This document shows positions 3,698 to 51,202 of a stretch of 64,000 bases of DNA, piece after piece; position 1 is the stretch's first letter; each line of letters opens with the position of its first letter. Both the position numbers and the translations under genes were made by a program. The DNA comes from Candidatus Kerfeldbacteria bacterium. GTDB lineage: Bacteria; Patescibacteriota; Patescibacteriia; SBBC01. The stretch spans positions 20,285-84,284 of the forward strand of contig JACQPY010000013.1 in NCBI GenBank assembly GCA_016207275.1, given 5' to 3'. Below the pieces are notes generated by a model. The model did not search any database and was not told where the DNA came from. It worked only from the letters and a program-made list of their open reading frames with translations.

Positions 3698-3936
3698 GTG
3701 AAGCTCCGCCGATCGCCGCCAATGGTCACCGCCTTTGGCGGGATCCCGCCCGAGGCGGTGACGGGACCCCGCATCCGCCCCGACCTTCCCCCTATACGCG
3801 GGGACCGGACGCTCGATACTGAGCTTAACCAGCGACGTCTGGTAGCTGCAGGTCGGACACTCGAAGTACAGCCACTGCTTGTCCGTGAAGCCGTCGACTT
3901 TCCATCCGTCGTTGTGCGGCCCCCAGGTCAGGGAGC

Positions 3937-6750: not shown

Positions 6751-6779
6751 TTGATTTATCGGCAGCACAGTGCTACAAT
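6751..6779 (+). promoter_or_regulatory. Sigma70-type promoter: TTGATT, 17 bp spacer, TACAAT
   Basis: Consensus-like -35 and -10 with a 17-bp spacer just upstream of the asparaginase-like gene. The -10 ends 3 nt before the ATG at 6782, so the real start codon may be downstream. Confidence 0.5.
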
Positions 6780-6781
6780 GA

Positions 6782-7816
6782 ATGCGCCGTCGCAATTTAT
6801 TAAAGACGGCTCGATTTTCAAAGGAAGTGGCTAAACTACCAAGAAAACGCGTGGCCTTGCTGTTCAGCGGCGGGACAATGTTGTCCGAAAAGCCGCGGCC
6901 CTGGGAAATCGTCAAGAAGCCCGAGCACATGCGTCGCTGGCTCGACAACATGAGCGAAATCAACGTCATCGCCGATGTCGAGCCGGTTTTTATCACCGGC
7001 AAGGGAACCTTGGAGATCGGGCCGGACGAGTGGCTGGCCATGGCTGAAGCAGTGCGCCGGCTGCACCAGTCAGTGGATGGATTCGTGGTGTTGCACGGCG
7101 TGGAAACTCTGCACTACACGGCCAATGCCTTGAGTTTGATGCTGCGCAATCTGCCGTTCCCGGCGGTGGTGTCCGGTTCGCCCTTGCGGATGCCTGGTTT
7201 GGGCGTGCGGCAGGTGGAGTTTGCCGCCCGCGCCAACATTATCAACGCGGTTCAGGTAGCGGCCGCTGACGTGGCCGGGGTATGCGTGGTTTTCGGCAAT
7301 CGGATCATGCCCGCTGCCCAAGTCCAACCGGTCATGGCTGAAGGCGCATTTCAGCTAGTAACCGCCGAGACGGCGCTCCTCGGCCGGGTGGATTTCGGCA
7401 CCAAGCTGTTCGAGAACCGAACCAAGCGATCAAACCGCAAGCCGCGCTGGTCCATCCACCTTGACCAGCATGTGTTCGTGACCACCATCACGCCGGCGGT
7501 GTCGGCCAGCTCTTTCCGCCTGGCTATCCGCGGTGATTTCCACGCCATCCTGGCCCGTCTCCATGAATTGGTGTCCTTGCCGGATTATGTCGAACGCGAA
7601 TTCCGGCGGGCCTTAAAGCACGGCATTCCGGTGGTTCTCTCATCTCGCCATCCGCTGCCGGGCATGGTGGAGTTCATTTCGCTCCTTGGCGTCAGCCCGA
7701 GTATGGCTGTCGTCAAGACCATGTGGGCGCTCGGCGCCACGCGTGAGGCGGGGAAGCTTCGCAAACTGCTTGAGCAGAACGTTGCCGGCGAATTCATCCA
7801 GGGAGGTGCCGCATGA
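6782..7816 (+). CDS. L-asparaginase family protein (type I-like)
   Basis: RVALLFSGGTM resembles the asparaginase TGGTIAG motif, and VVLHGVETLHYTANALSLML resembles HGTDT. Start is uncertain (GTG 6846 possible). Confidence 0.55.
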   Translation: MRRRNLLKTARFSKEVAKLPRKRVALLFSGGTMLSEKPRPWEIVKKPEHMRRWLDNMSEINVIADVEPVFITGKGTLEIGPDEWLAMAEAVRRLHQSVDGFVVLHGVETLHYTANALSLMLRNLPFPAVVSGSPLRMPGLGVRQVEFAARANIINAVQVAAADVAGVCVVFGNRIMPAAQVQPVMAEGAFQLVTAETALLGRVDFGTKLFENRTKRSNRKPRWSIHLDQHVFVTTITPAVSASSFRLAIRGDFHAILARLHELVSLPDYVEREFRRALKHGIPVVLSSRHPLPGMVEFISLLGVSPSMAVVKTMWALGATREAGKLRKLLEQNVAGEFIQGGAA

Positions 7817-8421
7817 TACGGGCATACTTCTACGGTCCGCCGACGACCAAGCGTGATCTGAATGACGTCTACGAAGTAATCAAGGACGTCTGTCAGCGCG
7901 CCGATGTCGCGCTCTCGACCAATACCGAAGCGGAAGAAATTAACTTACCGTCCGAAACCATTGCCGAGCATCGGGCCACCGGCGTGCCGCTGCTCGACGC
8001 GATGCAGGCCATTTTGGTGGAAGGTTCAACGCCTGATCCGCAGGCCGGCTATTTACTGGCCTATGCCTTGGCCGAGAAACGACCGCTGCTGTATCTCTAC
8101 AGCCGCGGCGAGGTGGCGCCGGACGTGCTGCGCTACCTGAATCTGAAGGATATTCCCAAGCACATCGTCATTGCCACCTATACCAAAGACCGGGTAGAGA
8201 AGCTGGTCGAGGATTTCCTGCGTCGGCTCGGCGACATCAAGGTCCGCGAAGTGGCGCGGATAAAGTTTACGCTTCGGTTGACGAAAAGCCTGGACGACTT
8301 CCTTGATTTCAAAACGCGGAACACCAAGCTGTCGAAAGCTGACTTCCTCCGCGAGGACATGGACAAGCGGATGAAGGCGGATGAGGAGTTTCAGCAGCAC
8401 TTGCGGAAAAGGAAGGGATAG
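7813..8421 (+). CDS. Hypothetical protein (possibly a nucleoside 2-deoxyribosyltransferase-like fold)
   Basis: 202 aa, starting MIRAYFYGPP, with a charged helical C-terminus; start overlaps the upstream stop. Confidence 0.4.
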   Translation: MIRAYFYGPPTTKRDLNDVYEVIKDVCQRADVALSTNTEAEEINLPSETIAEHRATGVPLLDAMQAILVEGSTPDPQAGYLLAYALAEKRPLLYLYSRGEVAPDVLRYLNLKDIPKHIVIATYTKDRVEKLVEDFLRRLGDIKVREVARIKFTLRLTKSLDDFLDFKTRNTKLSKADFLREDMDKRMKADEEFQQHLRKRKG

Positions 8422-8623: not shown

Positions 8624-8698
8624 GCGCCCCGCACCAATGTCATCCTGAGCCTTGTCCCGTCGAATGACGGGATGGTTTCAGGAACTGGTGCGGGGCGC
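8624..8698. other. 75-nt nested stem-loop (13-bp outer stem GCGCCCCGCACCA/TGGTGCGGGGCGC with two inner stems); structured-RNA or terminator candidate
   Basis: Perfect 13-bp outer stem, inner stems TCCTGA/TCAGGA and CCCGTC/GACGGG. Confidence 0.4.
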
Positions 8699-8718: not shown

Positions 8719-9726
8719 CTATGGCATGTGGGAGTAGCGGAATCGTTCTAGACCACGCCGCTTCGATAAAATCTCCCAACGGAAAACAAGCTCTGGGCTT
8801 CTTTCGTCAATTACTTCGAAGGAACCGTCATGGCGAACGATATAACCCTGGAACGTTCCAGAGATTCCTTTGATGAAGACTTGGTAGTTTTCTGAAAACT
8901 TTCGGGGAGACACCAGTCGATTAAATCTGAGATCAATGGGAATTCTAACCCGTCCGTCCTGGAGCTGCGCCGTACCCTCATGAGTTACCCAGAGCAATGC
9001 ATGGGGCAGAATCGTAAGCTCGTCTCGTTTCGATTTAAATTGTGAGCGGAGACGGGCGGCTCGTTTGGACGGTCCATCCTTTGGGGGACGACGGGCAATA
9101 GAGTCGAACATCGATTCAGTCGCTAGTTCACCGTTAAATCCAAGCAAGGTCATGATGTATTGACGCATGGGCACTTCACCGAGGAGAGCGAATACTCGGC
9201 TCGCCGTCTGTTCTTGAGCGCACCCAAGCTCAAGAGATAACGCGCTCTGTTCTAGATAGGCGTGAACCTCTTCTTCGAAGCGATCGATCATGACATCATA
9301 TGAGGTGTCAGGTAGGTCCGAGAACCGATTGAAGAGATATTGCCGGGAAGTTAACCCAAGTGCCGATCGAACGTGTTGATACTCATGCCAGAGGATGCAG
9401 TATTTAGTTTTAGTTGAGACATTTGGATTGTCAAAGGTATCCGGATTCAGCCTCAGGACTATGAGCGTATCACTGTTTGGTTGCACACTTAAATGAACGG
9501 ACGCCTGGTGGATCATTGATTCGGTTGCACTTAACTCGAAGCCAATTGCTACCCGCTCTGCATCGTAGAGTGAAACTAGGTTATGTCGGATCTCCACTCG
9601 TGGATGAGTTGCCATAAGTTGTTTCATCCGTTCGACGAACCCGAGCAAGTACTCAGGATCAGATTGAGTCACTGAGATTCCTGATGTTGCGAATACCAGA
9701 AACATCCAAATTGCAAAGCCCATCAC
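8719..9726 (-). CDS. Secreted hypothetical protein with an HExxH motif (putative zinc metallopeptidase-like); low-GC gene
   Basis: N-terminal signal peptide MMGFAIWMFLVFATSGISVTQS; motif CILWHEYQHVRSAL. About 47% GC against roughly 60% flanks. Confidence 0.5.
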   Translation of the reverse strand: MMGFAIWMFLVFATSGISVTQSDPEYLLGFVERMKQLMATHPRVEIRHNLVSLYDAERVAIGFELSATESMIHQASVHLSVQPNSDTLIVLRLNPDTFDNPNVSTKTKYCILWHEYQHVRSALGLTSRQYLFNRFSDLPDTSYDVMIDRFEEEVHAYLEQSALSLELGCAQEQTASRVFALLGEVPMRQYIMTLLGFNGELATESMFDSIARRPPKDGPSKRAARLRSQFKSKRDELTILPHALLWVTHEGTAQLQDGRVRIPIDLRFNRLVSPRKFSENYQVFIKGISGTFQGYIVRHDGSFEVIDERSPELVFRWEILSKRRGLERFRYSHMP

Positions 9727-9840
9727 TCATCGCTCCTTCCAGGTTCAGGTATTTAGTTGTCAAACGTCATTTCGTTACAACCACGGCTCTACTCTATCGC
9801 TTTTCGTCTGAGTGTCAAGAGCATTTTCTCGATATTTTTC

Positions 9841-9869
9841 TTGACAACGAGAAAAGCTCGAGCTAGGAT
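9841..9869 (+). promoter_or_regulatory. Consensus sigma70 promoter: TTGACA, 17 bp spacer, TAGGAT
   Basis: Exact TTGACA -35; the predicted TSS falls at the start of the GCCGTCGC repeat block. A second extended -10 (TGATAGAAT) lies at 9916-9924. Confidence 0.45.
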
Positions 9870-9882
9870 GAAGTCAGAAATG

Positions 9883-10016
9883 AGCCGTCGCTAAAAGTCA
9901 GCGCCGTCGCAAAAATGATAGAATACAAAATTTGGTCTTCACAATCTCTCGAATTTTGGAGGAAAGAAGACGATTTTCCCATTGCGCCGTCGCCAAAAAG
10001 CGCCGTCGCAAGAAAA
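9883..10016 (+). repeat. Four copies of GCGCCGTCGC(A/C)AAAA (a fifth copy at 6784-6795)
   Basis: Copies at 9883-9897, 9901-9915, 9984-9998 and 9999-10016. The same decamer overlaps the asparaginase start at 6784-6795 next to a GCCGTC/GACGGC hairpin. Confidence 0.5.
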
Positions 10017-10181
10017 GTGGATAAAGTGCTAACAATTTCCATTATGACCAGATTCATCAGCGCCAAGCATCATAAAAAACCCGATCCAGCCTGGCCGGTC
10101 AGTCATTTCCAGCGCATCATCGCCACGATTCCGTGGTTGTCAACCTCGCCACGCCGCTCCACCGACCCCGCGCATGATGTT

Positions 10182-10327
10182 TCCGGCGGAGCCGGACCCC
10201 GCCGAATGGCTGGGCGGGGTCGAGTTGTTTCTACCCACGCACCAGCCCCGCCATTTGGCGGGACGGTGCGGGGTTCCGCTCCACGGAACCACGTATCGAG
10301 AGAAGCCACGGCCGTGAGGCCGTGGAG
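10182..10327 (+). ncRNA. Cluster of five consecutive GC-rich stem-loops (candidate structured ncRNA or leader); class not identified
   Basis: ccggcggagccgg; ccccgcc(gaatggctg)ggcgggg; ccccgcc(attt)ggcggg; ggttccg(ctcca)cggaacc; ccacggcc(gtga)ggccgtgg. No protein-like ORF (the 156-aa ORF is Arg/Pro low-complexity). Confidence 0.3.
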
Positions 10328-10381
10328 CTTCACCAGACGCGTTTCCCGGCAGCGCCGAACGTTGTGGGAGGTGTTGATTCC

Positions 10382-10468
10382 ATGATCCCGTTAGAGAGTC
10401 CTCTAAAAACCATAAAATGTTTTCGATGTGGGCTGAAAAGTTTATCGGCTAACTCTCTAACGGGATGA
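10382..10468 (+). CDS. 28-codon mini-ORF (MIPLESPLKTIKCFRCGLKSLSANSLTG) with a GGGAGG RBS, enclosed by a perfect 15-bp inverted repeat
   Basis: RBS GGGAGG at 10366-10371 lies 10 nt before the ATG. The IR is atcccgttagagagt (10385-10399) / actctctaacgggat (10452-10466). Leader-peptide or attenuator candidate. Confidence 0.3.
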   Translation: MIPLESPLKTIKCFRCGLKSLSANSLTG

Positions 10469-10792
10469 CCATAATATTGGTCCGGCTGAATTACTTCGGG
10501 CTCTTGCTGATTTTGCTCTTGATATGGCGCGTGATTTCTATGACTTAAGTAACGACCAGCAGCTCCGCTCCGCCCTGGTTGCGGTGGCACCAGGGGAGAG
10601 CGGAAAACCTGCCCCGTAGTCAACCGGAGGTTGTACTACTGGGGACCGATATCTCCACTTGTACATTACAAGCAGCCATGCACCGCGCGCCGCTTGGATG
10701 CATGGTGTAAAGGAGGTGATGACAGCTAATCGCGTGATTTCGTCTTGGTGATCGCAGTCTGGCAGTGAACCATGCAACGAAGGAGGAACCAC

Positions 10793-11248
10793 GTGAAACG
10801 CTTCAGGCTCGTAGCAGCGGGATTGGTCCTGCTCGTCACGGGCGTCATGAACCCGGTCGCCGCGCACGCAGTCGCGGTGTCGGGAAACGTCATGCTCGGA
10901 ACGAAGTCGACACAGGCAGTGGTTGCCGCGGTGCCGCTCGACGCTTCCACCGGCATCATCGATGCCGACCGCGCCGTAACGGTCTTTACCGGACTCAACG
11001 GTCGGTTCACCATCACTCCGCCGAGCGAGCAGTTCATGCTCGTGGCGTGGAATGGCAGCGACGCCGGGATCGTATTCGAACCAGTGAACGGCGTCACCAT
11101 CCATCTCCTTCGGCAGGATCCGCCGATTGTGACCGCCGCGAATACGTGGTGTACCTGCACCCGGCTCTTCTGGGGCTTGTACTACACGTGCTGGTGGGCG
11201 GACTGGGGAAAGATCGGCTGCGTCCTCTGGAAGGGTTGCCAGTGCTAG
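10793..11248 (+). CDS. Secreted Cys/Trp-rich small protein (bacteriocin-like)
   Basis: GTG start with an AAGGAGG RBS 7 nt upstream; signal peptide MKRFRLVAAGLVLLVTGVMNPVAAHA; C-terminus NTWCTCTRLFWGLYYTCWWADWGKIGCVLWKGCQC (6 Cys, 6 Trp in 35 aa). Confidence 0.55.
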   Translation: MKRFRLVAAGLVLLVTGVMNPVAAHAVAVSGNVMLGTKSTQAVVAAVPLDASTGIIDADRAVTVFTGLNGRFTITPPSEQFMLVAWNGSDAGIVFEPVNGVTIHLLRQDPPIVTAANTWCTCTRLFWGLYYTCWWADWGKIGCVLWKGCQC

Positions 11249-11324
11249 CGGACGGGGCGTTTGAGCAATCAAGCGCCCCGCTCAATCCCTCAACATTATT
11301 TATCAACGTAAGATTCTAACGTAT

Positions 11325-11585
11325 ATGATCAACAAGAAAGAACTCATCCTTGCCATCATGCTCTTTGTCGCTCTCTACGTTATTGAAGCGACGCTGATCA
11401 GCACCTTACGGCTGCGGGGGAACGCTGCCATTACGACTGTCTGGGCGACTATCGGTGCGCAAGTGCTTCTGACAATGCTTTTCTACCAACGCAAACGGGT
11501 GACCGCGGGATTCGTTGGCACAATTGCCGTTGGACTTCAGATGATCATGCAGATTACCGGATTATTGATGATTGCGACGACATAG
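11325..11585 (+). CDS. 86-aa two-TM membrane peptide (possible immunity or partner protein)
   Basis: MINKKELILAIMLFVALYVIEATLIST...; low-GC; lies 76 nt downstream of the Cys-rich gene, after a hairpin. Confidence 0.45.
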   Translation: MINKKELILAIMLFVALYVIEATLISTLRLRGNAAITTVWATIGAQVLLTMLFYQRKRVTAGFVGTIAVGLQMIMQITGLLMIATT

Positions 11586-11656
11586 TTCCGCCCTGACGAC
11601 TCTCGGTGGCAGTCGTGATGACAGAATCGGTGGTGCGTAAAGAAAGGGAAAAGCAT

Positions 11657-12025
11657 ATGGATCTTAACCGCGTTACCCTGATCGGGAACCTGACCCGGGA
11701 CCCGCTCAAGAAGTCCGCCCCCAGCGGGCAGACGATCAGCCAGTTCTCGCTGGCGACCAACTACAGCTGGCAGGACGCCGCTACGAAGTCACGGAAGGAG
11801 AACGTCGAGTTCCACAATATCGTGGCCTGGGGCAAGCTGGCTGACATTGTCAACCAGTACGTCAAAAAGGGGAGCAAGGTCTACGTTGAAGGCCGGCTGC
11901 GGAATAGCTCCTGGAAAGACAAAGACGGCAAGCCGCAGCGCAAGACCGAAGTGGTGGCGGACAACCTGATCATGCTCGGTCACCGCGGCCAGCGTGAAGT
12001 GAAGTTGGCCGAACAATCGCAGTAA
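11657..12025 (+). CDS. ssb: Single-stranded DNA-binding protein
   Basis: MDLNRVTLIGNLTRDPLKK...ISQFSLATN...VEFHNIVAWGKLADIV...KVYVEGRLRNSSWKDKDGKPQ is an OB-fold SSB. RBS AAAGGGAAAAG; start set at the internal ATG rather than 11606. Confidence 0.85.
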   Translation: MDLNRVTLIGNLTRDPLKKSAPSGQTISQFSLATNYSWQDAATKSRKENVEFHNIVAWGKLADIVNQYVKKGSKVYVEGRLRNSSWKDKDGKPQRKTEVVADNLIMLGHRGQREVKLAEQSQ

Positions 12026-14284: not shown

Positions 14285-14815
14285 CCTAAAGTTGTAATCC
14301 CGTACAGAGCTCCGGGGCATGGATTCGAACCATGATTCGCGGCTCTCCCGCACTTAGCTCGAGGGCAGGATTCTCCGCCAAAGGCGGATCCGCCTTCTCT
14401 TTAAATCTTTTAAGTCAAAGTGGCGGAGAACCATCATAAGCACCTCTTCACCCCGCCTTTGGCGGAAAAGGCCGCTGTCCGGCCCTGCGCTCGGGGACAG
14501 GGATTCGAACCCCGATTAACGGCTCTTCCGCACCTAAGCTCGGGGGGCAGGATTCGAACCTGCGTACTGGGCTCCAAAGGCCCATGTCCTACCGTTAGAC
14601 GACCCCCGAACTTAGGTGCGGAATAAACTCCGGCCGCTGCCTGTCCCGCACCCTACGTGGTGCGGGGTCCTACCATTTAGACGATCCCCGAGCTGAGGGC
14701 GGGATAAACTCCGGGCGGTGCCGTGCGTAAACTTCTTGACGTTTAATAATGTCCTACGTGCCCGTACCTCCCGCCTTGGCGGGATGGTGCGGGGCCGTTA
14801 GATCACCCCCCATCG
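14285..14815 (-). repeat. Array of tRNA-Gln-derived partial copies around the intact gene, plus a 13-bp inverted repeat enclosing the tRNA
   Basis: Two 3'-half-like copies (T-arm + acceptor 3' strand + discriminator G) near 14306-14340 and 14493-14525. 5'-half-like copies (acceptor + D-arm) at 14667-14691 and about 14786-14812. The IR is TTCCGCACCTAAG (14526-14538) / CTTAGGTGCGGAA (14611-14623). Confidence 0.65.
14539..14609 (-). tRNA. tRNA-Gln (anticodon UUG), 71 nt, CCA not encoded
   Basis: Reverse complement reads TCGGGGG TC GTCT AACGGTA GGAC A TGGGC CTTTGGA GCCCA GTAC GCAGG TTCGAAT CCTGC CCCCCGA G. It has the U1:A72 pair and G73 typical of bacterial tRNA-Gln, and a canonical T-loop. Confidence 0.85.
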
Positions 14816-27606: not shown

Positions 27607-28596
27607 ATGGTAAAACAAATAACAGCTGCGATCCTGCTCGCCGCACTCATCAGCGGCGCTTTTGTCTATCCGGTTGAAGCAGCCGCCAAGAAAGCCCCCC
27701 GTCGGCTCGATGGGGTCTTAGTGCCGCCCGGGCAGACTAACCAGTGGCCAGTGGCGGTCATGATCGATAACCATGCGGCTTCTCGACCACCAGCCGGCTT
27801 GGACAAGGCCTCGGTCGTGTACGAAGCCCTGGCCGAAGGCGGCATTCCTCGGTTCATGGCTGTCTTTGCCCAGCCAAAAATTTCGCTGATTGGTCCGGTT
27901 CGTTCCGCCCGGCCGTATTTTGTCCGTTACGCCGCCGAGTACCGGGCTGGGTTGGCTCACGCCGGCGGCAGCTTCGATGCGCTGAACCTGCTTCGGAGCT
28001 TGCGGATGCCGAACTTCGAAGGGATTAAAGGCAAAACTGCGCAGTACTTCTATCGTCGCGGCGGCAACTGCGTCTACTGCCTATTTACCGACAGCAAACA
28101 GATGACCCGGGCGCTCAAGGCAGCCAAAGTCTACCGTAAAAAGCCGACCTACCAGCCGTGGAAGTTCAAAGCTGATCCACCGCTCGCCGAGCGGCGGACC
28201 GGGAAGCACGGCGCGACCGTTGATTTTGGCGCCGGGGCGGCCTACGCCATTCGTTACCAGTACGATCGAAAAAAGAATGTCTACCAGCGTTTTACCGGCG
28301 GTCGTCCACACCTCGATCGACTCACTCGCCAGCAGCTGACCGCTAAAAACGTGGTCCTCCTGTTGGTGCCGAAAGAGCGAGTGCTGGATCGCAAAGGCCG
28401 AATTTCGCTGAACACCATCGGTAAGGGCAAAGCCGTTTTACTCAAAGACGGTTACTCGCGTACGATTCGCTGGCAGAAACGCACGACCTACGGTCGGACC
28501 ATGTTTACCAGTCTTGACGGGGATGAAATTGAGTTCAACCGCGGCTCGGTCTGGATTACGGTCGTGCCGCGCGGGCATCACTACCGACTGTTTTAG
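27607..28596 (+). CDS. DUF3048-family secreted protein or lipoprotein (YerB-like)
   Basis: Signal peptide MVKQITAAILLAALISGAFVYPVEA; AVMIDNHAASRPPAGLDKASVVYEALAEGGIPRFMAVF matches the DUF3048 core. Confidence 0.6.
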   Translation: MVKQITAAILLAALISGAFVYPVEAAAKKAPRRLDGVLVPPGQTNQWPVAVMIDNHAASRPPAGLDKASVVYEALAEGGIPRFMAVFAQPKISLIGPVRSARPYFVRYAAEYRAGLAHAGGSFDALNLLRSLRMPNFEGIKGKTAQYFYRRGGNCVYCLFTDSKQMTRALKAAKVYRKKPTYQPWKFKADPPLAERRTGKHGATVDFGAGAAYAIRYQYDRKKNVYQRFTGGRPHLDRLTRQQLTAKNVVLLLVPKERVLDRKGRISLNTIGKGKAVLLKDGYSRTIRWQKRTTYGRTMFTSLDGDEIEFNRGSVWITVVPRGHHYRLF

Positions 28597-28631: not shown

Positions 28632-30194
28632 GTGTCAGCACCCATGGGTTTTTTGGCGAGACCGTCGTTCAAAGCTTTTCGGCTGTCGGAACATACGCAG
28701 TATCGAATCCTGGAAATTATTCCAGGGTTTTTAGTCTGGGGCGCTTTTGGCGTCGCGGTTATCATGTCGCTGCTGCGGCCGCTGTGGGTAATCGGCTTCA
28801 TCATTCTCTTCGACCTGTACTGGTTCGTCCGCGCAATCTATACCTTGGTCTACCTCCTGGTCGCGTACCAACGCTACCGTCAGGCGGCGGTGATCAACTG
28901 GCGCCAACGGTTGGCCGCGCGGCCGGGTTGGCAATCAATCTACCACGTAGTAGTTCTGCCAACGTACCGCGAACCAGTGGCCGTGGTCGAGCAAGCCTTT
29001 GCCGGTTTGGCTTGCTCGGACTACCCGCTCGAGCGGTTGCTGGTTATTTTGGCGTTGGAAGAGCGGGATGGTCAAGTTGCGCAAGCGGTGGCCACGCGCA
29101 TCCAGCAGCGTTACGGCCAGACATTTGGTGAGCTGCTGGTCACCTTCCACCCTGCTAACCGACCCGGTGAAGTGGCGGGTAAAGGAGCCAACATTACCTG
29201 GGCCGGGCGCGCGGCCAAGGAACGAATTGACGCGCGCGGCATTCCCGAAGAGCAGGTCCTGGTTACCACGCTCGATGTCGACTCGGTGGTCCACCCGCAG
29301 TACTTTGCCTACCTGACTGACGTCTTCCTGGCCCACCCCCACCGGCTGCGGACCAGCTACCAGCCGTTGCCGTTCTACCACAACAACATCTGGCAGTCGC
29401 CGGCCCTGACCCGGATCGTGGCCACCTCGACCACTTTTTGGCTGATGACCGAAACCATTAGACCGGACCGGCTATTTACTTTTTCCTCGCACAGCATGCC
29501 GTTGCGGGCGCTCGTTGATGTTGGTTTTTGGCAAACTGACATCGTCACCGAAGACTCTCGAATTTTTCTCCAGTGTTTCGTCCAATACGATGGTGATTAC
29601 ACGGTCACCCCATTGTACCTACCGATTTCAATGGATACGGTGGCCGTGCCGTCGCTGTGGCGAACGGTACTTAACCAGTACCAGCAGCAGCGGCGGTGGG
29701 CCTACGGCGTGGAAAATTTTCCGTACATGGTGTGGAATTTTTCGGTCAACCGGCACATCCCAGGGGCGAAAAAAATCAAGTATATCTGGAACCAGCTTGA
29801 GGGAGTGTTCAGCTGGGCGACCGCACCGATTCTCATTTTTGTCCTCGGTTGGTTGCCCATCAAAGTTGCGGAAGCGCAGCAGCGTACCGAGCTGATCGTG
29901 CAAAGCGCGCCCGATCTGCTTCAGACTTTGATGGTGTTGGCGATGATCGGCTTGGTGACCGCCGCCGTCATGTCCGTGTTAATGTTACCGCCCCCGCCGC
30001 CCGGTAAAAGCAAGTGGCAGCTGGTGCCGATGGTCTTGCAATGGCTGCTGCTACCGGTGACCATGATCATTTTCGGCTCGATTCCGGCCACTGATGCGCA
30101 GACGCGACTGATGCTCGGCAAGTATCTGGGTTTTTGGGTGACGGAGAAGAGTCGAACCTACGAACCGAGGATGGCACCGACGAAATCACGGTGA
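28632..30194 (+). CDS. Membrane-embedded family-2 glycosyltransferase (cellulose-synthase-like processive GT)
   Basis: DxD-type motifs (TLDVDS), QxxRW motif (QQQRRWAYG), and multiple TM helices at both ends. Confidence 0.75.
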   Translation: MSAPMGFLARPSFKAFRLSEHTQYRILEIIPGFLVWGAFGVAVIMSLLRPLWVIGFIILFDLYWFVRAIYTLVYLLVAYQRYRQAAVINWRQRLAARPGWQSIYHVVVLPTYREPVAVVEQAFAGLACSDYPLERLLVILALEERDGQVAQAVATRIQQRYGQTFGELLVTFHPANRPGEVAGKGANITWAGRAAKERIDARGIPEEQVLVTTLDVDSVVHPQYFAYLTDVFLAHPHRLRTSYQPLPFYHNNIWQSPALTRIVATSTTFWLMTETIRPDRLFTFSSHSMPLRALVDVGFWQTDIVTEDSRIFLQCFVQYDGDYTVTPLYLPISMDTVAVPSLWRTVLNQYQQQRRWAYGVENFPYMVWNFSVNRHIPGAKKIKYIWNQLEGVFSWATAPILIFVLGWLPIKVAEAQQRTELIVQSAPDLLQTLMVLAMIGLVTAAVMSVLMLPPPPPGKSKWQLVPMVLQWLLLPVTMIIFGSIPATDAQTRLMLGKYLGFWVTEKSRTYEPRMAPTKSR

Positions 30195-45980: not shown

Positions 45981-46532
45981 TTATAGTCCGAGTTGGTTGT
46001 GGATGCCTTGCATCGCTTGCAGCACGTTTTGAATGTGCTCGTTTCTGGGGACACCGAGGAGCTGAATGCTATCATTAATTTCTTGACGGTTGACCTTGGC
46101 CGCGAAATCCTTGCGTTTCAGTTTTTTCTCAATGCCCTCGATGGTTACATCGGCCAGCTTCTTATTCGGCGTCATGAGCGAAACCGCCACGATAAAACCC
46201 GAGATCTCGTCACACGCAAACAGCGCTTTCTCCATCGGCGTTTCCGGTTTGACGCCGGTACGCGGCGCATGAGCGAGGATGGCATGGCGGATTCGTTCAG
46301 GTACCCCACGCTCGGCAAGAATCGATTGGCCTTTAATCGGATGATCATCGAGTGTCGGATGGATTTCCCAATCAAAGTCATGCAGCAGACCGACGATCCC
46401 CCACTCCTCGGGATCGCCGCCAAACTTCGGCGCGTAGGCGCGCATCGCCGCTTCGACGGCGAGCATATGTTTTTTTAGGTTGGCGTTCTTGACAAACTCG
46501 TCGAGAATCACTAGCGCGTCGGCGCGGGTCAT
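45981..46532 (-). CDS. HD-domain phosphohydrolase
   Basis: KHMLAVEAAMRAY...GLLHDFD is the H...HD metal-binding motif. Confidence 0.7.
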   Translation of the reverse strand: MTRADALVILDEFVKNANLKKHMLAVEAAMRAYAPKFGGDPEEWGIVGLLHDFDWEIHPTLDDHPIKGQSILAERGVPERIRHAILAHAPRTGVKPETPMEKALFACDEISGFIVAVSLMTPNKKLADVTIEGIEKKLKRKDFAAKVNRQEINDSIQLLGVPRNEHIQNVLQAMQGIHNQLGL

Positions 46533-46611
46533 CCCGTTAGAAAGTTAGCATTGAGCATAATACTACGCACGATAACCTGGGCATGCAGAGTCGGAGAACT
46601 TTCTAACGGGA

Positions 46612-48063
46612 TCATGGTTGTTCCGGTTTGAGCGTGGGAAAGAGAATCACGTCTTTGAGCGTTTTTTGGTTGGTCAGCAACGCCGTTAGTCGGTCAATGC
46701 CGATGCCAAGACCGGAGGTCGGCGGCAGGCCGTATTCCAGAGAACGGATATACGATTCATCAATCGGCTGTGCTTCCGTATCCCCTTTCTGCCGCAGCCG
46801 TTCTTGCGCCTCGAAACGCTGGCGCTGCTCAGCCGGATCGTTTAACTCACTGAAAGCGTTTCCGAGTTCGGTGCCGTCGGCCAGCAATTGGAATCGTTCG
46901 ACATACTTCGTGTCATTCGGTTTGCGCTTGGCCAGCGGTGACAACTCGACGGGAAAATCAATCACGAATGTCGGTTCGATGAAATTCGATCGCACATGCG
47001 TTTTGAATATTTCGTCGATCATTTTCGAGCGGCTCATGTCATCGGGCAGATCAGTGCCGATGTTACGACCCTGTGCTCTGAGCTGATCGTCACCGGCTTG
47101 GTCAATGTCAATTTTCGTGGTGTGCAGAATCGCTTCGCGATAGGCGATGCGCTTGAATGGTTTCTTAAGCTTGAAAGTTTTCTGGCCCAGCGTGATTTCC
47201 GGCTTGCGCTTGATGGCGGTTGCTAGTTCAATCATCAAATCTTCGGTCAGAGTAAGCATCCACTCGTAGTCAGTGTAGGCCGCGTAGCATTCCATCATGG
47301 TGAATTCCGGGTTGTGGTCGCGGTCGATTCCCTCGTTGCGAAAATTACGGCCAATTTCGAAAACCCGGCCAAAGCCGCCGACGATCAGCCGCTTGAGGTA
47401 AAGTTCGGGCGCGACGCGAAGGTACAGGTCTAGATCGAGGGCTTGGTGGTGCGTGACGAACGGGCGGGCCGTGGCGCCACCGGGAATGGGTTGCAGGACC
47501 GGCGTTTCGACTTCGACAAATTCTCGTTCAACCAAAAATTGGCGAACGGCGTTCAGCATAGTACTGCGTGTTAGAAAGATATCTTTAACCACGGGGTTCG
47601 CCAGGGTGTCGAGTTCCCGGTACCGATACCGTGTTTCGACGTCAGCCAAGCCGTGCCATTCCGACGGCAGCGGTCGAACTGCTTTGGTCAGCCAACGGAG
47701 GCTGGTGGCATCAACCGTGCGCTCGCCGCGCTTGGTGACGAACGTCGTTCCACCGACTTCAAGAAAATCGCCGAGGTCAATGAGCTTGATCAAATGGGAA
47801 AAATCAGCGAGGTTTTTCTTTTGCAAAAAAACTTGGAGCGGGCCGGTTTCGTCTTCCAGTTTAAGAAACGCCGAACCGCCCTGCAGTCGGCTGGCCCGAA
47901 CACGTCCGGCAATGACGACTTGTTGGTCGAGCCGCCAAGCAGCCAACAGTTGACGAGTTTGGTGCGTGCGCCCGACGCGGGCGGGATAGGGCTCACGACC
48001 CATGCCCTGCAGCATCGCCAACTTCTCGCGGCGGGTTTGCTCCTGGTCCGTCAGCTTCCGCAT
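46612..48063 (-). CDS. lysS: Lysyl-tRNA synthetase (class II)
   Basis: N-terminal OB anticodon-binding domain plus class II motifs (FRNEGID...GGLGIGIDRL). Confidence 0.9.
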   Translation of the reverse strand: MRKLTDQEQTRREKLAMLQGMGREPYPARVGRTHQTRQLLAAWRLDQQVVIAGRVRASRLQGGSAFLKLEDETGPLQVFLQKKNLADFSHLIKLIDLGDFLEVGGTTFVTKRGERTVDATSLRWLTKAVRPLPSEWHGLADVETRYRYRELDTLANPVVKDIFLTRSTMLNAVRQFLVEREFVEVETPVLQPIPGGATARPFVTHHQALDLDLYLRVAPELYLKRLIVGGFGRVFEIGRNFRNEGIDRDHNPEFTMMECYAAYTDYEWMLTLTEDLMIELATAIKRKPEITLGQKTFKLKKPFKRIAYREAILHTTKIDIDQAGDDQLRAQGRNIGTDLPDDMSRSKMIDEIFKTHVRSNFIEPTFVIDFPVELSPLAKRKPNDTKYVERFQLLADGTELGNAFSELNDPAEQRQRFEAQERLRQKGDTEAQPIDESYIRSLEYGLPPTSGLGIGIDRLTALLTNQKTLKDVILFPTLKPEQP

Positions 48064-48753: not shown

Positions 48754-50688
48754 TCAAGGCGTGCGGTGGGTCTTGGCAAAGTAGGCGGCTAAGGCTCGTT
48801 TGGCCATCGGCAGGGCAGCGGCGTGACCTTCGCCGCCAGCCTCGACTACGACCGTGACGACGATCTCCGGTCGATCGAACGGCGCAAAGCTGGTTAACCA
48901 AGCGTGAGTTTTGTTCTCGTTTCCGAACTGCGCCGTCCCCGTTTTGGCGGCGACGGCGACCGGAAGATCACCGAGCGCCCGAGCGCTGCCGCCGGTGACC
49001 GCTTGTCGCATGCCGGCGCGGACTGAGGCCAGGAATTGATCGGCCACCGTTTGGTTGAGGGACTTTGGTTTCATCGCTTGGGTCGTCTGCCCGTCGGCCG
49101 CTAAAATTTCTTTAACGACGAACGGTTGGTAGAGTGTTCCGCCGTTGGCAATGGCGGCGGTGTAGTCGGCTACTTGGAGTGGGGTGACGTTGATGAAACC
49201 CTGACCAATAGCGAGGTTGTACGTATCACCGACGTACCATCGTGGCGAGCTTGGTTTACTCCGCCAGGCGCGGTCGGGTAGAAAGCCCGCGGCCTCGTTC
49301 GGTAGGTCAATACCGAGCCGTCGACCGAGTCCAAACCGCGCCAGGTAGTTGACCACGCGTTCAATGCCGAGGCCGGAAAAATCTTCAAAACCAGCACTGA
49401 TCAGATAGAAAAACGTGTTGACGGATTCGGCCAACGCTTTACGGACGTCAGTGGTGCCGTGGCCACCCGTTTTCCAGTCCGGAAAAAAGTTTGGGCCGAC
49501 TCTAATCCCGCCGACGCTCTGGACCGTGGTACGTTCGGTAATCACGCCCTCGTCGAGAGCAGCGGCGGCGATTACCGGTTTGATCGTCGAGCCCGACGGG
49601 TACGATCCGCTAATCGCCCGGAAGAACAGTGGATGTCGCTCGTCGTCGAAGATGGCTCGAAAATCTGTCTGGTTACCGCCCTGCGAAAACTGGTTAGGGT
49701 CAAACGAGGGCTGCGAAACCAAGGCTAGCACCTCGCCAGTACGCGGGTCGAGCGCCACCGCCGCACCACCAGGTACCCGCAGTCGGTGGATCGTGTCTTC
49801 GAGTGCTTGGCTGAGCGTTTGCTGCAGTTCTTCGTCGATCGTTAAGATCAGGTTGTGGCCCGGTTCGGCTTCGCGGCTGGCGATAACCGCTAGCTCTTTG
49901 TTTAAGTGGTCACGTTCAACCTCGCGAACGCCATCTTGGCCGCGGAGAAAACGGTCATAGGCGAGCTCGATACCCATCCGGCCAACCGACGATAAGGTGG
50001 TCAAGTCATTATCGCGCTCGAGTTCGGCCGGCGTAGGTTTACCCAGATAACCGAGCAGGTGAGCAGTCGCCGTTCCGTCTCGGTACGCCCGCGTACTGAT
50101 TGCCTCGAGCGAAATACCTGGCAGACGAGCGATGACCGTTGACAGGCGGAGTGCGTCTTCATAGCTGACGTGATCGGAAAGAATTACCGGTTGGATCGAA
50201 CCTACGGGGGATATCGCCAGCGCCGTCTGGATGCTGTCCGCGCCGAGTGTCGGGTACGCCCGCGCTAACTGGCTGACCAGTGCCGTTCGCTCGTCGGCAC
50301 CGCGGGGCAGGTCGGCCGGGGTGGCCAGGAGGGTGAACGACGGGATATTGGTCAAGAGCGGCGTGCGATGACGGTCATAGATAACGCCACGCGGCGCTGG
50401 CTGCACTTCGAGTCGGATCCGATTCCGTTCAGACGAGAAACGATAGCGTTCGCCTTTGGCGAGCTGGAGGTAGGCCACGCGGGTCAGGAGGGCGAGCAGC
50501 GCGAGCAGTAAGATTAAGGCCAGGATCGTCACGTTGACACGGTTGGCCGACAGCCGTCGGGTGCTGGCCCCCGGGGCGAGGTAGTCTTCAACATTAAGGC
50601 CTCGCCGGTCGCGTCGAACGATCAGCGGTCGTTGATCGGCTGACAACGGCACCGACGTAAATGGGTTGGTTAGGCGACTAAAATTCAT
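48754..50688 (-). CDS. mrdA: Penicillin-binding protein 2 / class B transpeptidase (elongasome PBP2, given the mreBCD neighbours)
   Basis: SGSTIKP (SxxK), SVN-like motif and KTGTAQ (KTG). The ORF-track start at 50751 overlaps mreD; the internal MNFSRL start is preferred. Confidence 0.8.
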   Translation of the reverse strand: MNFSRLTNPFTSVPLSADQRPLIVRRDRRGLNVEDYLAPGASTRRLSANRVNVTILALILLLALLALLTRVAYLQLAKGERYRFSSERNRIRLEVQPAPRGVIYDRHRTPLLTNIPSFTLLATPADLPRGADERTALVSQLARAYPTLGADSIQTALAISPVGSIQPVILSDHVSYEDALRLSTVIARLPGISLEAISTRAYRDGTATAHLLGYLGKPTPAELERDNDLTTLSSVGRMGIELAYDRFLRGQDGVREVERDHLNKELAVIASREAEPGHNLILTIDEELQQTLSQALEDTIHRLRVPGGAAVALDPRTGEVLALVSQPSFDPNQFSQGGNQTDFRAIFDDERHPLFFRAISGSYPSGSTIKPVIAAAALDEGVITERTTVQSVGGIRVGPNFFPDWKTGGHGTTDVRKALAESVNTFFYLISAGFEDFSGLGIERVVNYLARFGLGRRLGIDLPNEAAGFLPDRAWRSKPSSPRWYVGDTYNLAIGQGFINVTPLQVADYTAAIANGGTLYQPFVVKEILAADGQTTQAMKPKSLNQTVADQFLASVRAGMRQAVTGGSARALGDLPVAVAAKTGTAQFGNENKTHAWLTSFAPFDRPEIVVTVVVEAGGEGHAAALPMAKRALAAYFAKTHRTP

Positions 50689-51202
50689 GTGAGACCAGGG
50701 TCGCGTACGTCCGACCAGATAGACGGACGGTAACGTAAACGATAATTGCAATCACGATCGTCCTCATCACATCCGTCAACACAAACCCAAACCACCATCC
50801 GTTGGCCAGGATGCTGGCGGCTTGCGGATCGAGCAATCGACCGAGGTGGCTGGCGACGAGAATAAGGACATGCGTCAGGATTGTACCGAGGGAGACTAGG
50901 GAGAGGAAGGCGAGAAAAGAACGGTTGGTGATTCGCGTGCGGAAAATCCAGCGGGTGGCGGTAATCGTAGCGACGTAGGCGATCAGGTGACTGCCGAATG
51001 GCAAGGCGGAAAATAGGTCAACCGTAAACCCACCGATCAGCGCGCCAAGCAGCGCCAATCGAGTGTCGCCGAGCAACAAGATGAGGAGGAGTGAAGGGGT
51101 CAAGAGGCCCGGTGACAGCAGCGGAGAGGATACGTTGGGGGTAACGAAGATGCTCACCAGCAGAACCGCACCGAGAATTGTGGTCGGGAGCAGACGTCGC
51201 AT
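50678..51202 (-). CDS. mreD: Rod shape-determining protein MreD (probable)
   Basis: 174-aa polytopic membrane protein directly downstream of mreC; this position is diagnostic of mreD. Confidence 0.5.
   Translation of the reverse strand: MRRLLPTTILGAVLLVSIFVTPNVSSPLLSPGLLTPSLLLILLLGDTRLALLGALIGGFTVDLFSALPFGSHLIAYVATITATRWIFRTRITNRSFLAFLSLVSLGTILTHVLILVASHLGRLLDPQAASILANGWWFGFVLTDVMRTIVIAIIVYVTVRLSGRTYATLVSHEF

What the first reader, a model, noticed from the sequence alone, without database searches (positions are those of the whole stretch)
9841..10790. About 900-nt gene-free, highly structured region with consensus promoters upstream of the Cys-rich gene
No protein-like ORF exists here; the only long ORF is Arg/Pro low-complexity created by GC hairpins. 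Yet the region holds a textbook promoter (TTGACA, 17 bp, TAGGAT at 9841-9869) and an extended -10 box (TGATAGAAT, 9916-9924). It also holds four GCGCCGTCGC-AAAA repeats, five back-to-back GC-rich stem-loops (10182-10327), a 15-bp perfect IR around a 28-codon mini-ORF, and direct CGCGTGATTTC repeats (10528, 10734). The likeliest readings are a long regulatory leader (attenuator or riboswitch of unknown class) for the downstream secreted protein, or an independent ncRNA.
Basis: seen in the sequence. Interest (0 to 1): 0.5.

Follow-up and report, generated by a model that had tools for sequence, protein, structure and literature searches.

The report
Patchwork operon leader with mobile hairpins
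The supposed gene-free structured RNA is the front end of a small operon in a Kerfeldbacteria (CPR) genome: a conserved promoter with repeated operator-like boxes, two tiny genes, one conserved RNA hairpin copied from the ssb leader, and inserted palindromic repeats that produce most of the apparent structure.

Summary
The window comes from a Candidatus Kerfeldbacteria MAG. I compared it with 13 related loci.

Conserved parts:
- A sigma-70-type promoter (9841-9869).
- An array of GCGCCGTC boxes at fixed positions just downstream. The same box occurs as an inverted pair on the promoter of the neighbouring asparaginase-like/202-aa operon. The 202-aa protein has a DNPH1-like domain plus a probable ribbon-helix-helix tail, so the boxes are most likely its operators (inferred).
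- ORF-A (10044-10385), which NCBI already annotates as HY567_02295.
- ORF-B (10465-10548), a hydrophobic 27-aa peptide with a coding signature.
- A hairpin with a covarying stem and conserved GGUGGCA loop (10562-10609). It is a paralogue of the ssb leader hairpin (11584-11633).

Lineage-specific parts:
- The GC stem-loops are REP-like insertions, in frame within ORF-A.
- The 15-bp inverted repeat is a multi-copy palindromic element. In Kerfeldbacteria loci it always sits between duplicated ATGA, and orthologous empty sites carry a single ATGA.

There is no Rfam match and no intrinsic terminator. Verdict: a composite operon leader made of new members of known kinds. The ATGA-junction element is the most unusual piece.

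The parts
9841..9869 (+). Sigma-70-type promoter, TTGACA-17-TAGGAT. The predicted transcription start is near 9876.
   Evidence: scan. TTGAC(A/G/C)-17-TA(G/A)(G/A/T)AT is conserved at the same place in L001, L002, L005-L008, L010, L011, L013, L016, L017, L024 and L025.
9882..9910 (+). R1 (GAGCCGTCGC, 9882-9891) and R2 (GCGCCGTCGC, 9901-9910), 19 bp start to start. Operator-like boxes at about +6 and +25.
   Evidence: Invariant in every related locus. The same 19-bp spacing is seen for the inverted pair on the asparaginase-like promoter.
9984..10009 (+). R3 (9984-9993) and R4 (10000-10009), GCGCCGTCGC, 16 bp apart.
   Evidence: A box about +103 from R1 is present in all loci: direct in most, and inverted (GCGACGGCGC) in L010, L013 and L016.
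10018..10026 (+). GTGGATAAA box, always 7 nt after the last R box (GTGGATAAC / GTGTACAAC / GTGCATAAC in relatives). Function unknown. It resembles a DnaA box in 8 of 9 positions; the DnaA consensus is from my own knowledge.
10044..10385 (+). ORF-A, a small basic protein of 113 aa here and 53-77 aa in relatives. It has no Shine-Dalgarno sequence. Its last codons carry the Shine-Dalgarno sequence of the next ORF. Its stop overlaps the next ATG as ATGA.
   Evidence: It equals NCBI HY567_02295. The frame and the motifs IPWL (CCG/CCT/CCC/CCA), DPA, RGR and WE.LIP* are kept in six loci. There is no codon-position bias, so constraint at the protein level is weak.
10164..10330 (.). GC-rich hairpin cluster. 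Only the stem GACCCCGC/GCGGGGTC (10164-10171 / 10213-10220) is shared with relatives. Its loop expansion and the block at about 10225-10330 are window-specific, REP-like insertions that stay in frame in ORF-A.
   Evidence: Alignment A2. Fold z-scores. The same motifs, CCGCC-N3-6-GGCGG (8 found against 1.1 expected) and GGTGCGGGG (6 against 1.1), occur in other intergenic spots of the window.
10382..10468 (+). 87-nt palindromic element including both flanking ATGA. Its 15-bp terminal inverted repeat is ATCCCGTTAGAGAGT. It forms a 28-codon mini-ORF (MIPLES...NSLTG*). The mini-ORF starts on the ATGA that ends ORF-A and ends on the ATGA that starts ORF-B.
   Evidence: The element is absent, leaving a single ATGA, at the same site in L002, L005 and L008. 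Other copies are at window 46529-46615, L001, L013 (two copies) and L021.
10465..10548 (+). ORF-B, a 27-aa hydrophobic peptide, MTIILVRLNYFGLLLILLLIWRVISMT. Its ancestral Shine-Dalgarno sequence, GGGAGG at 10366-10371, now serves the mini-ORF.
   Evidence: Conserved in six loci with the pattern LN.(Y/F)...L.L.L...R. Substitutions by codon position are 216/120/248, the pattern expected of a coding hydrophobic peptide.
10562..10609 (+). Conserved RNA hairpin. The stem is CCCUGG/CCAGGG, extended by CCGCUC/GAGCGG. The 11-nt loop is UUGCGGUGGCA (10579-10589). It is a paralogue of the ssb leader hairpin.
   Evidence: Alignment A4. 82% of cells are paired against 30-46% in the slid controls. The covariation score is 0.59 against at most 0.20, and 0 of 500 shuffles reach it. 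The covariance model hit scores 33 bits.
10608..10645 (+). Optional inserted hairpin (CCCCGUAGU...ACUACUGGGG) in the terminal loop of the second leader helix (GGAGA-G-CGG ... CCG-AUA-UCUCC).
   Evidence: Present only in the window and L005.
10646..10792 (+). Rest of the leader. It holds AUAUCUCCAC (10648-10657), an anti-Shine-Dalgarno-like stretch predicted to pair with the conserved Shine-Dalgarno-like AAGGAGGUGAU (10710-10720). The real Shine-Dalgarno sequence is AAGGAGG at 10781-10787. The GTG start of the Cys-rich gene is at 10793.
   Evidence: Fold of 10549-10800 gives z = -3.4. The 3' half is near-identical only in L001, so its structure is not tested by covariation.
6751..6810 (+). Outside the finding. 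Promoter-like TTGATT-17-TACAAT (6751-6779) of the asparaginase-like/202-aa operon, followed by an inverted R-box pair, GCGCCGTCGC-N9-AAGACGGCTC (6784-6812).
   Evidence: The same inverted pair sits between the -10 box and the start codon in L001, L002, L007, L013, L017, L019, L024 and L025.
7813..8421 (+). Outside the finding. A 202-aa protein with an N-terminal DNPH1/Rcl-like domain and a C-terminal beta-alpha-alpha (ribbon-helix-helix-like) tail. It is the candidate protein that binds the R boxes.
11584..11633 (+). Outside the finding. The ssb leader hairpin (ACGAC-UCUCGGUGGCA-GUCGU), followed by GAUGACAGAAUCGGUGGUGCG. The ssb ATG is at 11657.
   Evidence: 61 bits.
46529..46615 (-). Outside the finding. 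A second copy of the 87-nt ATGA-flanked palindromic element. It lies exactly between the stop of gene 46612..48063 and the start of gene 45981..46532.

Best explanation
The region is the promoter-proximal part of a protein-coding operon. It is a mosaic, not one RNA. Steps are marked as shown or inferred.

1. (Shown) The conserved promoter at 9841-9869 is the only sigma-70-like + strand promoter before the Cys-rich gene. No intrinsic terminator follows it. (Inferred) One transcript therefore runs 9876 -> ORF-A -> ORF-B -> leader -> Cys-rich gene.

2. (Shown) Four GCGCCGTC boxes sit at fixed positions (0, +19, about +103, +119) just downstream of the start. The same box forms an inverted pair with the same 19-bp spacing over the start site of the neighbouring asparaginase-like/202-aa operon, in loci whose 202-aa proteins are as little as 48% identical to the window's. 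(Inferred) They are DNA operators for the 202-aa DNPH1-like/RHH-like protein. That protein would repress its own operon and this one. The conserved 84 bp (8 helical turns) between R2 and the +103 box may allow looping, and the response may be to a nucleotide-like ligand.

3. (Shown) ORF-A ends and ORF-B begins on an ATGA overlap, with the Shine-Dalgarno sequence GGGAGG. (Inferred) ORF-B, a hydrophobic 27-aa peptide, is translated by coupling.

4. (Shown) An 83-nt palindromic element flanked by duplicated ATGA has inserted in that overlap. (Inferred) Its open 28-codon frame relays ribosomes from the first ATGA to the second, so coupling survives the insertion.

5. (Shown) REP-like GC hairpins have inserted in frame in ORF-A.

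6. (Shown) A hairpin with a covarying stem and GGUGGCA loop precedes both the Cys-rich gene and ssb. (Inferred) It is an RNA-level regulatory or stabilising signal shared by both genes, duplicated when the secreted-protein cassette was inserted into what is ancestrally the ssb upstream region.
For: - Organism and synteny.
- Block structure of the region: alignment A2 and the extracts.
- Promoter conservation.
- No terminators.
- R-box positions.
- R-box pairs on the asparaginase-like promoter in 9 loci.
- The 202-aa protein: 192 Patescibacteria homologues; AF2 model pLDDT 82; DNPH1 hits. Sub-threshold but consistent RHH-type Pfam hits (NikA-like 5 of 22, HicB 5 of 22, RHH_3) come from scanning the C-terminal tails of the window protein and 21 homologues; the window's own tail gave no hit.
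- ORF-A is annotated.
- ORF-B coding signature.
- Inverted-repeat element: copies and empty sites.
- REP-like family.
- Hairpin covariation and restriction to two sites per locus.
- Minimal loci L017 and L024 show 202-aa gene -> promoter + R boxes -> hairpin -> ssb with nothing in between.
Against: - There is no expression data, so transcript boundaries are inferred from consensus scans only.
- Binding of the 202-aa protein to R boxes is untested. Its RHH assignment rests on secondary-structure pattern and sub-threshold Pfam hits, and sequence searches against PDB found no RHH.
- ORF-A shows no codon-position bias and has no Shine-Dalgarno sequence, so it may be translated weakly or not at all.
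- R boxes lie on the transcribed strand in a fixed orientation at R1 and R2. They are complementary, with G.U pairs, to the GGUGG loop, so an RNA role is not excluded.
- The ATGA rule rests on five copies. A sixth, in the phage-like contig L021, lacks ATGA.
Confidence: 0.65

Rival explanations
1. The whole of about 900 nt is one long structured cis-regulatory RNA (a riboswitch or attenuator of unknown class), or an independent ncRNA, controlling the Cys-rich gene.
For: - Strong folding z-scores.
- A conserved promoter.
- One truly covarying hairpin next to the gene.
- Conserved Shine-Dalgarno-like and anti-Shine-Dalgarno-like stretches.
Against: - No Rfam hit, even at E <= 10.
- No terminator.
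- About 600 nt of the region is missing in L010, L013 and L016, which keep the same promoter and the same gene.
- The most stable structures are inserted repeat elements that are absent in relatives.
- Two conserved ORFs lie inside it.
- The hairpin fold is as good or better on the minus strand, as expected of DNA palindromes.
Confidence: 0.08
2. The R boxes act as RNA. The four GCCGUCGC motifs in the 5' leader base-pair with the GCGGUGGC loops of the two hairpins, and with the CGGYGGYGC stretch next to the ssb Shine-Dalgarno sequence. In compact loci they would pair with the exact complement GCGACGGCGC. This would set translation or stability of the downstream cistrons.
For: - R1 and R2 always lie on the transcribed strand.
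- 8 contiguous pairs (6 Watson-Crick and 2 G.U) are possible with the invariant loop. By my own estimate this has about a 0.01 chance, judged after the fact.
- Compact loci have a perfect 10-nt complement at +103 to +106 (alifold).
- The asparaginase-like leader pair would form a 5' hairpin.
Against: - Both partners are invariant, so there is no covariation test.
- Uncompensated changes occur in the asparaginase-like pair: L013 GCGCCGCC against GACGGCGC, and L025 ACGCC....
- The orientation flips at a fixed position, and the conserved spacing sits over non-conserved spacer sequence. Both fit protein-DNA geometry better.
- The boxes overlap the transcription start on a second promoter.
Confidence: 0.2
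3. ORF-A and ORF-B form a hok/mok-like or other type I toxin-like module. A small hydrophobic peptide would have its translation coupled to an overlapping upstream reading frame and be controlled by a structured mRNA.
For: - ORF-B is 26-30 aa, hydrophobic and conserved, with a coding signature.
- It is coupled to ORF-A by an ATGA overlap.
- It is an accessory feature, missing in L017, L024, L010, L013 and L016.
Against: - No conserved antisense promoter. The minus-strand TTGACA at 10143 is not conserved.
- No match to any toxin family was sought or found.
- The module sits inside an operon with ordinary genes.
Confidence: 0.1
4. The region is the decayed remnant of a larger protein-coding gene (a pseudogene).
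For: - The long Arg/Pro-rich ORF 9915-10385.
- Several short ORFs in different frames.
Against: - No Pfam hit.
- The protein database holds only the two small ORF-A entries as relatives.
- Relatives have an even shorter ORF-A (53-77 aa) rather than a longer intact gene.
- The extra length in the window is repeat insertion.
Confidence: 0.03

Closest known systems
Ribbon-helix-helix repressor operators (NikR GTATGA-N16-TCATAC; omega repressor heptad arrays; CopG, Arc/Mnt) - from my own knowledge of these systems
   Same: - Short boxes occur in pairs, in direct or inverted orientation.
- They are placed over or just after the transcription start.
- They are present on the regulator's own promoter and on a neighbouring one.
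- The candidate regulator joins a ligand-type domain to an RHH-like tail, as NikR does.
   Different: - The box sequence (GCGCCGTC), the 19- and 16-bp spacings, and a third site 84 bp away are not those of any described RHH operator that I know.
- The sensor domain is DNPH1/nucleoside 2-deoxyribosyltransferase-like.
- Binding has not been shown.
Autoregulatory mRNA leaders of single-strand-binding proteins (phage T4 gene 32; reported binding of E. coli SSB to its own mRNA) and ribosomal-protein leaders - from my own knowledge
   Same: A conserved hairpin with an invariant loop sits just upstream of the Shine-Dalgarno sequence of ssb. The same motif is repeated before a second gene of the locus.
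   Different: - No sequence or structural similarity to those leaders, and no Rfam family.
- The binding partner is unknown.
- The motif is also placed before a secreted-protein gene.
MITEs and palindromic repeats: Neisseria Correia/NEMIS elements, enterobacterial REP/BIME and ERIC, Rickettsia palindromic elements (RPE) - from my own knowledge
   Same: - Small size (about 83 nt), terminal inverted repeats and multiple copies.
- Presence/absence polymorphism, with a duplicated short flank.
- Co-transcribed inside operons.
- The GC hairpins resemble RPEs in sitting in frame inside an ORF.
   Different: - The flank is ATGA, exactly a stop/start overlap, rather than TA or none.
- Interiors are unrelated between copies, while length (87 nt) and an open frame are kept in three of four independent insertions.
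- No autonomous parent with the same ends has been seen.
hok/mok-type coupled small ORFs
   Same: A small hydrophobic peptide whose start overlaps the end of an upstream reading frame, within a structured mRNA.
   Different: - No antisense RNA gene, no fold-back inhibition elements and no family match.
- It is embedded in a larger operon.

Membership tests
Known riboswitch or cis-regulatory RNA family (Rfam 15) | Match to a family covariance model | tested here: not met
   cmscan of 9500-11000 at E <= 10 gave only two chance-level hits (17 and 12 bits). The whole window at gathering thresholds gave only tRNA-Gln. The ssb leader and the related loci gave nothing either.
Transcription attenuator | Intrinsic terminator hairpin followed by a U tract, with a competing antiterminator | tested here: not met
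   0 terminator-like sites in 9400-11400, against 2.0 expected in shuffles. The inverted-repeat hairpin is followed by GACCAUAAU, not a U tract.
Structured RNA motif (generic) | Base pairs kept by compensatory changes across relatives | tested here: met
   Met only for the hairpin at 10562-10609 and its ssb paralogue. All 6 pairs show double changes. 82% of cells are paired against at most 46% in the slid controls, and 0 of 500 shuffles reach the observed score. Not met, or untestable, for the rest of the region.
Protein-coding gene (ORF-A) | Conserved open frame with excess third-position substitutions | tested here: inconclusive
   The frame is open and the motifs stay in register in six loci. 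The Pro codon of IPWL uses all four synonymous codons. Substitutions are even across codon positions, and there is no Shine-Dalgarno sequence.
Protein-coding gene (ORF-B) | Conserved open frame with a position-specific substitution pattern and a ribosome-binding site | tested here: met
   Substitutions by codon position are 216/120/248 over 15 pairs. The Shine-Dalgarno sequence GGGAGG lies upstream in 4 of 6 loci. A hydrophobic core is present in all six.
MITE-like mobile element (the 15-bp inverted-repeat element) | Terminal inverted repeats | tested here: met
   14-16 bp perfect or near-perfect arms in all copies.
MITE-like mobile element (the 15-bp inverted-repeat element) | Duplicated target site, with empty orthologous sites | tested here: met
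   ATGA lies on both sides of all five Kerfeldbacteria copies. A single ATGA is at the ORF-A/ORF-B junction in L002, L005 and L008, and at the asparaginase-like/202-aa junction in six loci, while L013 is filled there.
MITE-like mobile element (the 15-bp inverted-repeat element) | Multiple related copies per genome, and an autonomous parent with the same ends | tested here: inconclusive
   Two copies in the 64-kb window, two in L013, one in L001 and one in L021. Interiors are unrelated and no transposase-bearing relative was seen.
REP-like repeats (the GC hairpins) | A short GC-rich palindrome family over-represented in intergenic DNA | tested here: met
   CCGCC-N3-6-GGCGG occurs 8 times against 1.1 expected. 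GGTGCGGGG occurs 6 times against 1.1. Most copies lie between genes. Association with a RAYT transposase was not tested.
RHH repressor/operator pair | RHH fold in the candidate regulator | tested here: inconclusive
   The AF2 model shows an extended segment plus two helices at residues 148-189. Scans of the C-terminal tails of the window protein and 21 homologues gave sub-threshold Pfam hits to RHH-type families: NikA-like 5 of 22 (best 1.4e-4), HicB 5 of 22, and RHH_3. The window's own tail had no Pfam hit at E <= 10 and no PDB sequence hit; the tail profile found no RHH protein in PDB.
RHH repressor/operator pair | Repeated boxes at the regulator's own promoter and at the target promoter | tested here: met
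   An inverted pair lies between the -10 box and the start codon of the asparaginase-like/202-aa operon in 9 loci. An array lies after the -10 box of the downstream operon in 14 loci.
RHH repressor/operator pair | Specific protein-DNA binding | not testable with these tools
   Needs EMSA or footprinting.

The most novel reading that the evidence does not exclude
The 83-nt palindromic element is a new kind of selfish insertion that targets ATGA stop/start overlaps inside operons. It neutralises its own cost by carrying an open, in-frame 28-codon relay ORF. The relay ORF starts on the upstream gene's ATGA and ends on a duplicated ATGA, which restarts the downstream gene, so translational coupling is preserved.

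Three of four independent insertions are exactly 87 nt and open although their interiors are unrelated. By my rough estimate this has a chance probability of about 0.003.
Probability: 0.3. Interest if true: 0.7.

Novelty: new member of a known kind. Interest (0 to 1): 0.42.

Why it matters
Almost nothing is known about gene regulation in CPR/Patescibacteria. The analysis yields four testable things.

- A candidate regulon. GCGCCGTC boxes on two adjacent promoters, one leading to ssb, are linked to a Patescibacteria-wide, unannotated protein with a DNPH1-like domain and an RHH-like tail.
- A conserved leader hairpin shared by ssb and a secreted-protein gene.
- An unannotated hydrophobic micro-protein.
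- A palindromic element that sits exactly in ATGA gene junctions.

It also shows how REP- and MITE-like insertions can make a coding operon front end look like a large structured RNA.

Tried and rejected
- Rfam, in both gathering and permissive modes, on the region, the whole window, the ssb leader and four related loci: nothing.
- Tandem Repeats Finder on the region: nothing.
- blastn of the region against plasmids: no match.
- Pfam on all ORFs of the region and on both neighbours: nothing.
- Exact-protein look-ups with window proteins failed. Loci were reached through homologues instead.
- MSRR mini-ORF at 9880-9894 as a leader peptide: rejected, because L017 has AAGAGCC instead of AATGAGCC.
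- Extended -10 box at 9916 as a second promoter: rejected as not conserved.
- A hairpin between R2 and R3 as a conserved RNA helix: rejected. Hairpins there differ in position and are missing in L002.
- Replication origin (one DnaA-box-like GTGGATAA next to ssb): not supported. There is only a single box, no skew switch in 6-15 kb, and no change in gene orientation there.
- Integron attC similarity of the inverted repeat: rejected, because the order of the core sites is the reverse (reading of the sequence, own knowledge).
- T-box similarity of the GGUGGCA loop: not supported by Rfam.
- Covariance model search for further copies of the hairpin in 142 kb: found only the two per locus.
- PDB sequence searches for the C-terminal tail of the 202-aa protein: no RHH hit.
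- Long-range pairing of GUGGAU with AUCCAC appears in compact loci but is not consistently possible in the expanded loci.
Full report
**What is there.** The stretch 9727-10792 lies between a minus-strand ORF (8719..9726) and a secreted, Cys-rich ORF. That ORF's real start is GTG 10793, behind AAGGAGG at 10781.

- TTGACA-17-TAGGAT at 9841-9869.
- TGATAGAAT at 9916.
- Four GCGCCGTCGC-type boxes at 9882, 9901, 9984 and 10000.
- A GC hairpin cluster that folds far better than shuffles, z = -4.7 on the plus strand and -5.6 on the minus strand.
- A perfect 15-bp inverted repeat around a 28-codon ORF.
- CGCGTGATTTC twice, the second copy at 10731.

Rfam gives nothing, even at E <= 10. No intrinsic terminator is predicted.

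**Source and comparators.** The Cys-rich protein is 100% identical to a hypothetical protein of a Candidatus Kerfeldbacteria MAG. It has only four relatives among 5.8 billion proteins.

I collected related loci in three ways:
- Contigs of those relatives: L001, L002, L005, L006.
- Pattern scans with the invariant motif ATGAGCCGTCGC-N9-GCGCCGTCGC: L007, L008, L010, L011, L013, L016. L012, L014 and L015 are chance hits.
- Homologues of the upstream 202-aa gene: L017, L019, L024, L025.

The simplest loci, L017 and L024, read: asparaginase-like gene, 202-aa gene, promoter plus boxes, hairpin, ssb. Other loci carry a secreted-protein cassette inserted before ssb. The cassette is the Cys-rich type in the window, L001, L002, L005, L006, L010 and L013. 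Unrelated secreted proteins occupy it in L008, L016 and L025. Some loci also carry small ORFs.

The window's region is therefore an expanded version of what is ancestrally the ssb upstream region.

**Promoter and R boxes.** The promoter is conserved in all 14 related loci.

Relative to R1, boxes lie at 0, +19, +100 to +103 and +116 to +119. In L017 and L024 they lie at 0, +19, +87/88 and +103/104. In L010, L013 and L016 the +103 to +106 box is inverted. A box near +103, 84 bp from R2, is universal, while the spacer sequence is not conserved.

The same box forms an inverted pair, GCGCCGTC(G/T)(C/T)-N9-(A/G)(A/C)GACGGCGC, between the -10 box and the start codon of the asparaginase-like/202-aa operon. 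This holds in nine loci, including L019, whose 202-aa protein is only 48% identical.

The 202-aa protein is restricted to Patescibacteria, with 192 hits.
- Its N-terminal 137 residues are DNPH1/Rcl-like by sequence profile and by fold.
- Its tail has a strand-helix-helix pattern.
- Scans of the tails of the window protein and 21 homologues give sub-threshold but concordant hits to RHH-type families; the window's own tail gives no Pfam hit.
- No PDB sequence match to an RHH was found.

I infer that the boxes are operators of this protein. This is inference, not demonstration.

An RNA role remains possible. R is complementary to the GGUGG loop with two G.U pairs, and compact loci carry an exact complement. 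It is less likely, because orientation flips at a fixed position, spacing is conserved over unconserved sequence, and the asparaginase-like pair shows uncompensated changes.

**Small ORFs.** ORF 10044-10385 is NCBI protein HY567_02295. Its L002 counterpart is HY420_02050.

The frame stays open in six loci and the motifs IPWL, DPA, RGR and WE.LIP* stay in register. The IPWL proline uses all four codons. Substitutions are even over codon positions, and there is no Shine-Dalgarno sequence. I call it a probable, weakly constrained small protein.

Its last codons are the Shine-Dalgarno sequence (GGGAGG) of ORF-B, and its stop overlaps the next ATG. ORF-B (10465-10548) is a 26-30 aa hydrophobic peptide conserved in six loci. 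Its substitutions by codon position are 216/120/248, a coding signature.

**Inserted repeats.** Relative to L002, ORF-A in the window carries 44 extra codons, made of GC hairpins. Their motifs, CCGCC-N3-6-GGCGG and GGTGCGGGG, are 5- to 7-fold over-represented in the window and mostly intergenic. They are a REP-like family that happens to sit in frame here.

The 15-bp inverted repeat belongs to an element found:
- twice in the window (10382-10468 and 46529-46615),
- once in L001,
- twice in L013,
- once in a phage-like IMG/VR contig, L021.

The five Kerfeldbacteria copies are 83-88 nt and have unrelated interiors. Their stems differ by compensating changes (GAGAG/CTCTC, GAAAG/CTTTC, GAGCG/CGCTC), and all are flanked by ATGA on both sides.

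Orthologous empty sites have one ATGA. This is seen at the ORF-A/ORF-B junction in L002, L005 and L008, and at the asparaginase-like/202-aa junction in six loci, where L013 is filled. Three of the four independent insertions are exactly 87 nt and form an open mini-ORF running from the first ATGA to the second.

**The one covarying RNA element.** A hairpin with the loop nnnCGGUGGCA occurs before the secreted-protein gene (window 10562-10609) and again in the ssb leader (window 11584-11633). Both copies are preceded by UCCGCCCU.

Over 19 instances:
- The 6-bp stem is paired in 82% of cells, against 30-46% when the partner is slid.
- All six pairs show double changes.
- No shuffle out of 500 reaches the observed covariation score.

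A covariance model finds only these two sites per locus in 142 kb. The hairpin before the Cys-rich gene is thus a paralogue of the ssb leader hairpin. Its partner and function are unknown. I infer a shared post-transcriptional signal.

The rest of the window's leader folds well (z = -3.4) and predicts sequestration of a conserved Shine-Dalgarno-like AAGGAGGUGAU by AUAUCUCCAC. That part is nearly identical only in L001, so covariation does not test it.

There is a real promoter, a long 5' region and one real RNA motif. There is no single riboswitch-like RNA and no attenuator. Most of the 'structure' comes from inserted palindromic repeats.

Each component is a new, undescribed member of a known kind: an operator array, a leader hairpin, a micro-protein, and REP- and MITE-like repeats. 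The ATGA-junction element is the piece most worth following up.

Noticed in passing
window 46529-46615 (minus strand): A second copy of the 87-nt palindromic element lies exactly between the TGA of gene 46612..48063 and the ATG of gene 45981..46532. Its open 28-codon mini-ORF (MIPLESSPTLHAQVIVRSIMLNANFLTG*) overlaps both genes by ATGA.
   Followed up: yes
window 6751-6812: The promoter-like site of the asparaginase-like/202-aa operon is followed by an inverted pair of the same GCGCCGTC box found in the finding. The pair is conserved in nine loci.
   Followed up: yes
window 7813-8421: An unannotated 202-aa protein family, restricted to Patescibacteria and always ATGA-coupled to an asparaginase-like gene. 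It has an N-terminal DNPH1/nucleoside 2-deoxyribosyltransferase-like fold and a C-terminal RHH-like tail. One JGI record calls a member a 'predicted DNA-binding protein'.
   Followed up: partly
window 11584-11657: The ssb leader carries the GGUGGCA-loop hairpin plus a conserved GAUGACAGAAUCGG(Y)GG(Y)GCG stretch before the Shine-Dalgarno sequence. In L010, L011, L013 and L016 the second stretch is a near-exact inverted R box (GCGCCGCCGA or GCGCCGTCGA).
   Followed up: partly
window 3725-3762, 8624-8698, 14371-14469, 14645-14668, 14770-14794: A family of GC-rich palindromes (CCGCC..GGCGG, CCCCGCACC..GGTGCGGGG) lies in intergenic spacers. It is REP-like.
   Followed up: partly
window 14526-14623: A 21-nt inverted repeat (95% complementary) brackets tRNA-Gln (14538-14609, minus strand). 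It extends the acceptor stem by about 12 bp on each side and may be a processing stem.
   Followed up: no
window 48932-48957: GCCGTC-N14-GACGGC, an R-box-like inverted pair, lies inside ORF 48754..50751. It is the only other such pair in the window (2 found against 0.12 expected).
   Followed up: no
window 28591-28631: A single inverted R-like box (GCGACGGCGT) directly abuts a TTGACT -35-like hexamer, in the 35-nt gap before gene 28632..30194.
   Followed up: no
window 11253-11329: A GC hairpin (GGGGCG...CGCCCC) lies right after the Cys-rich gene's stop, followed by a promoter-like TTATCA-18-TATGAT. The 86-aa gene and ssb may therefore form a separate transcription unit.
   Followed up: no
L008 and L013 (whole loci): The contigs are labelled 'Candidatus Microgenomatus auricola' and 'uncultured Gammaproteobacteria'. 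Both carry the Kerfeldbacteria-type locus (same synteny, promoter, boxes and hairpins), so they may be mis-binned or mislabelled.
   Followed up: no
L021 3125-3205: A copy of the palindromic element (arms ATCCCGTTAGAAAT) lies in a 42% GC phage-like IMG/VR contig. It sits between a head-morphogenesis-like gene and the next gene, and has no ATGA flanks.
   Followed up: partly
L001 7030-7080: The spacer between R2 and R3 in L001 contains an extra inverted pair of R half-sites (GCCGTCTC ... GAGACGGC). The window's GUCUUC/GAAGAC hairpin at 9937-9974 may be a degenerate version of it.
   Followed up: no
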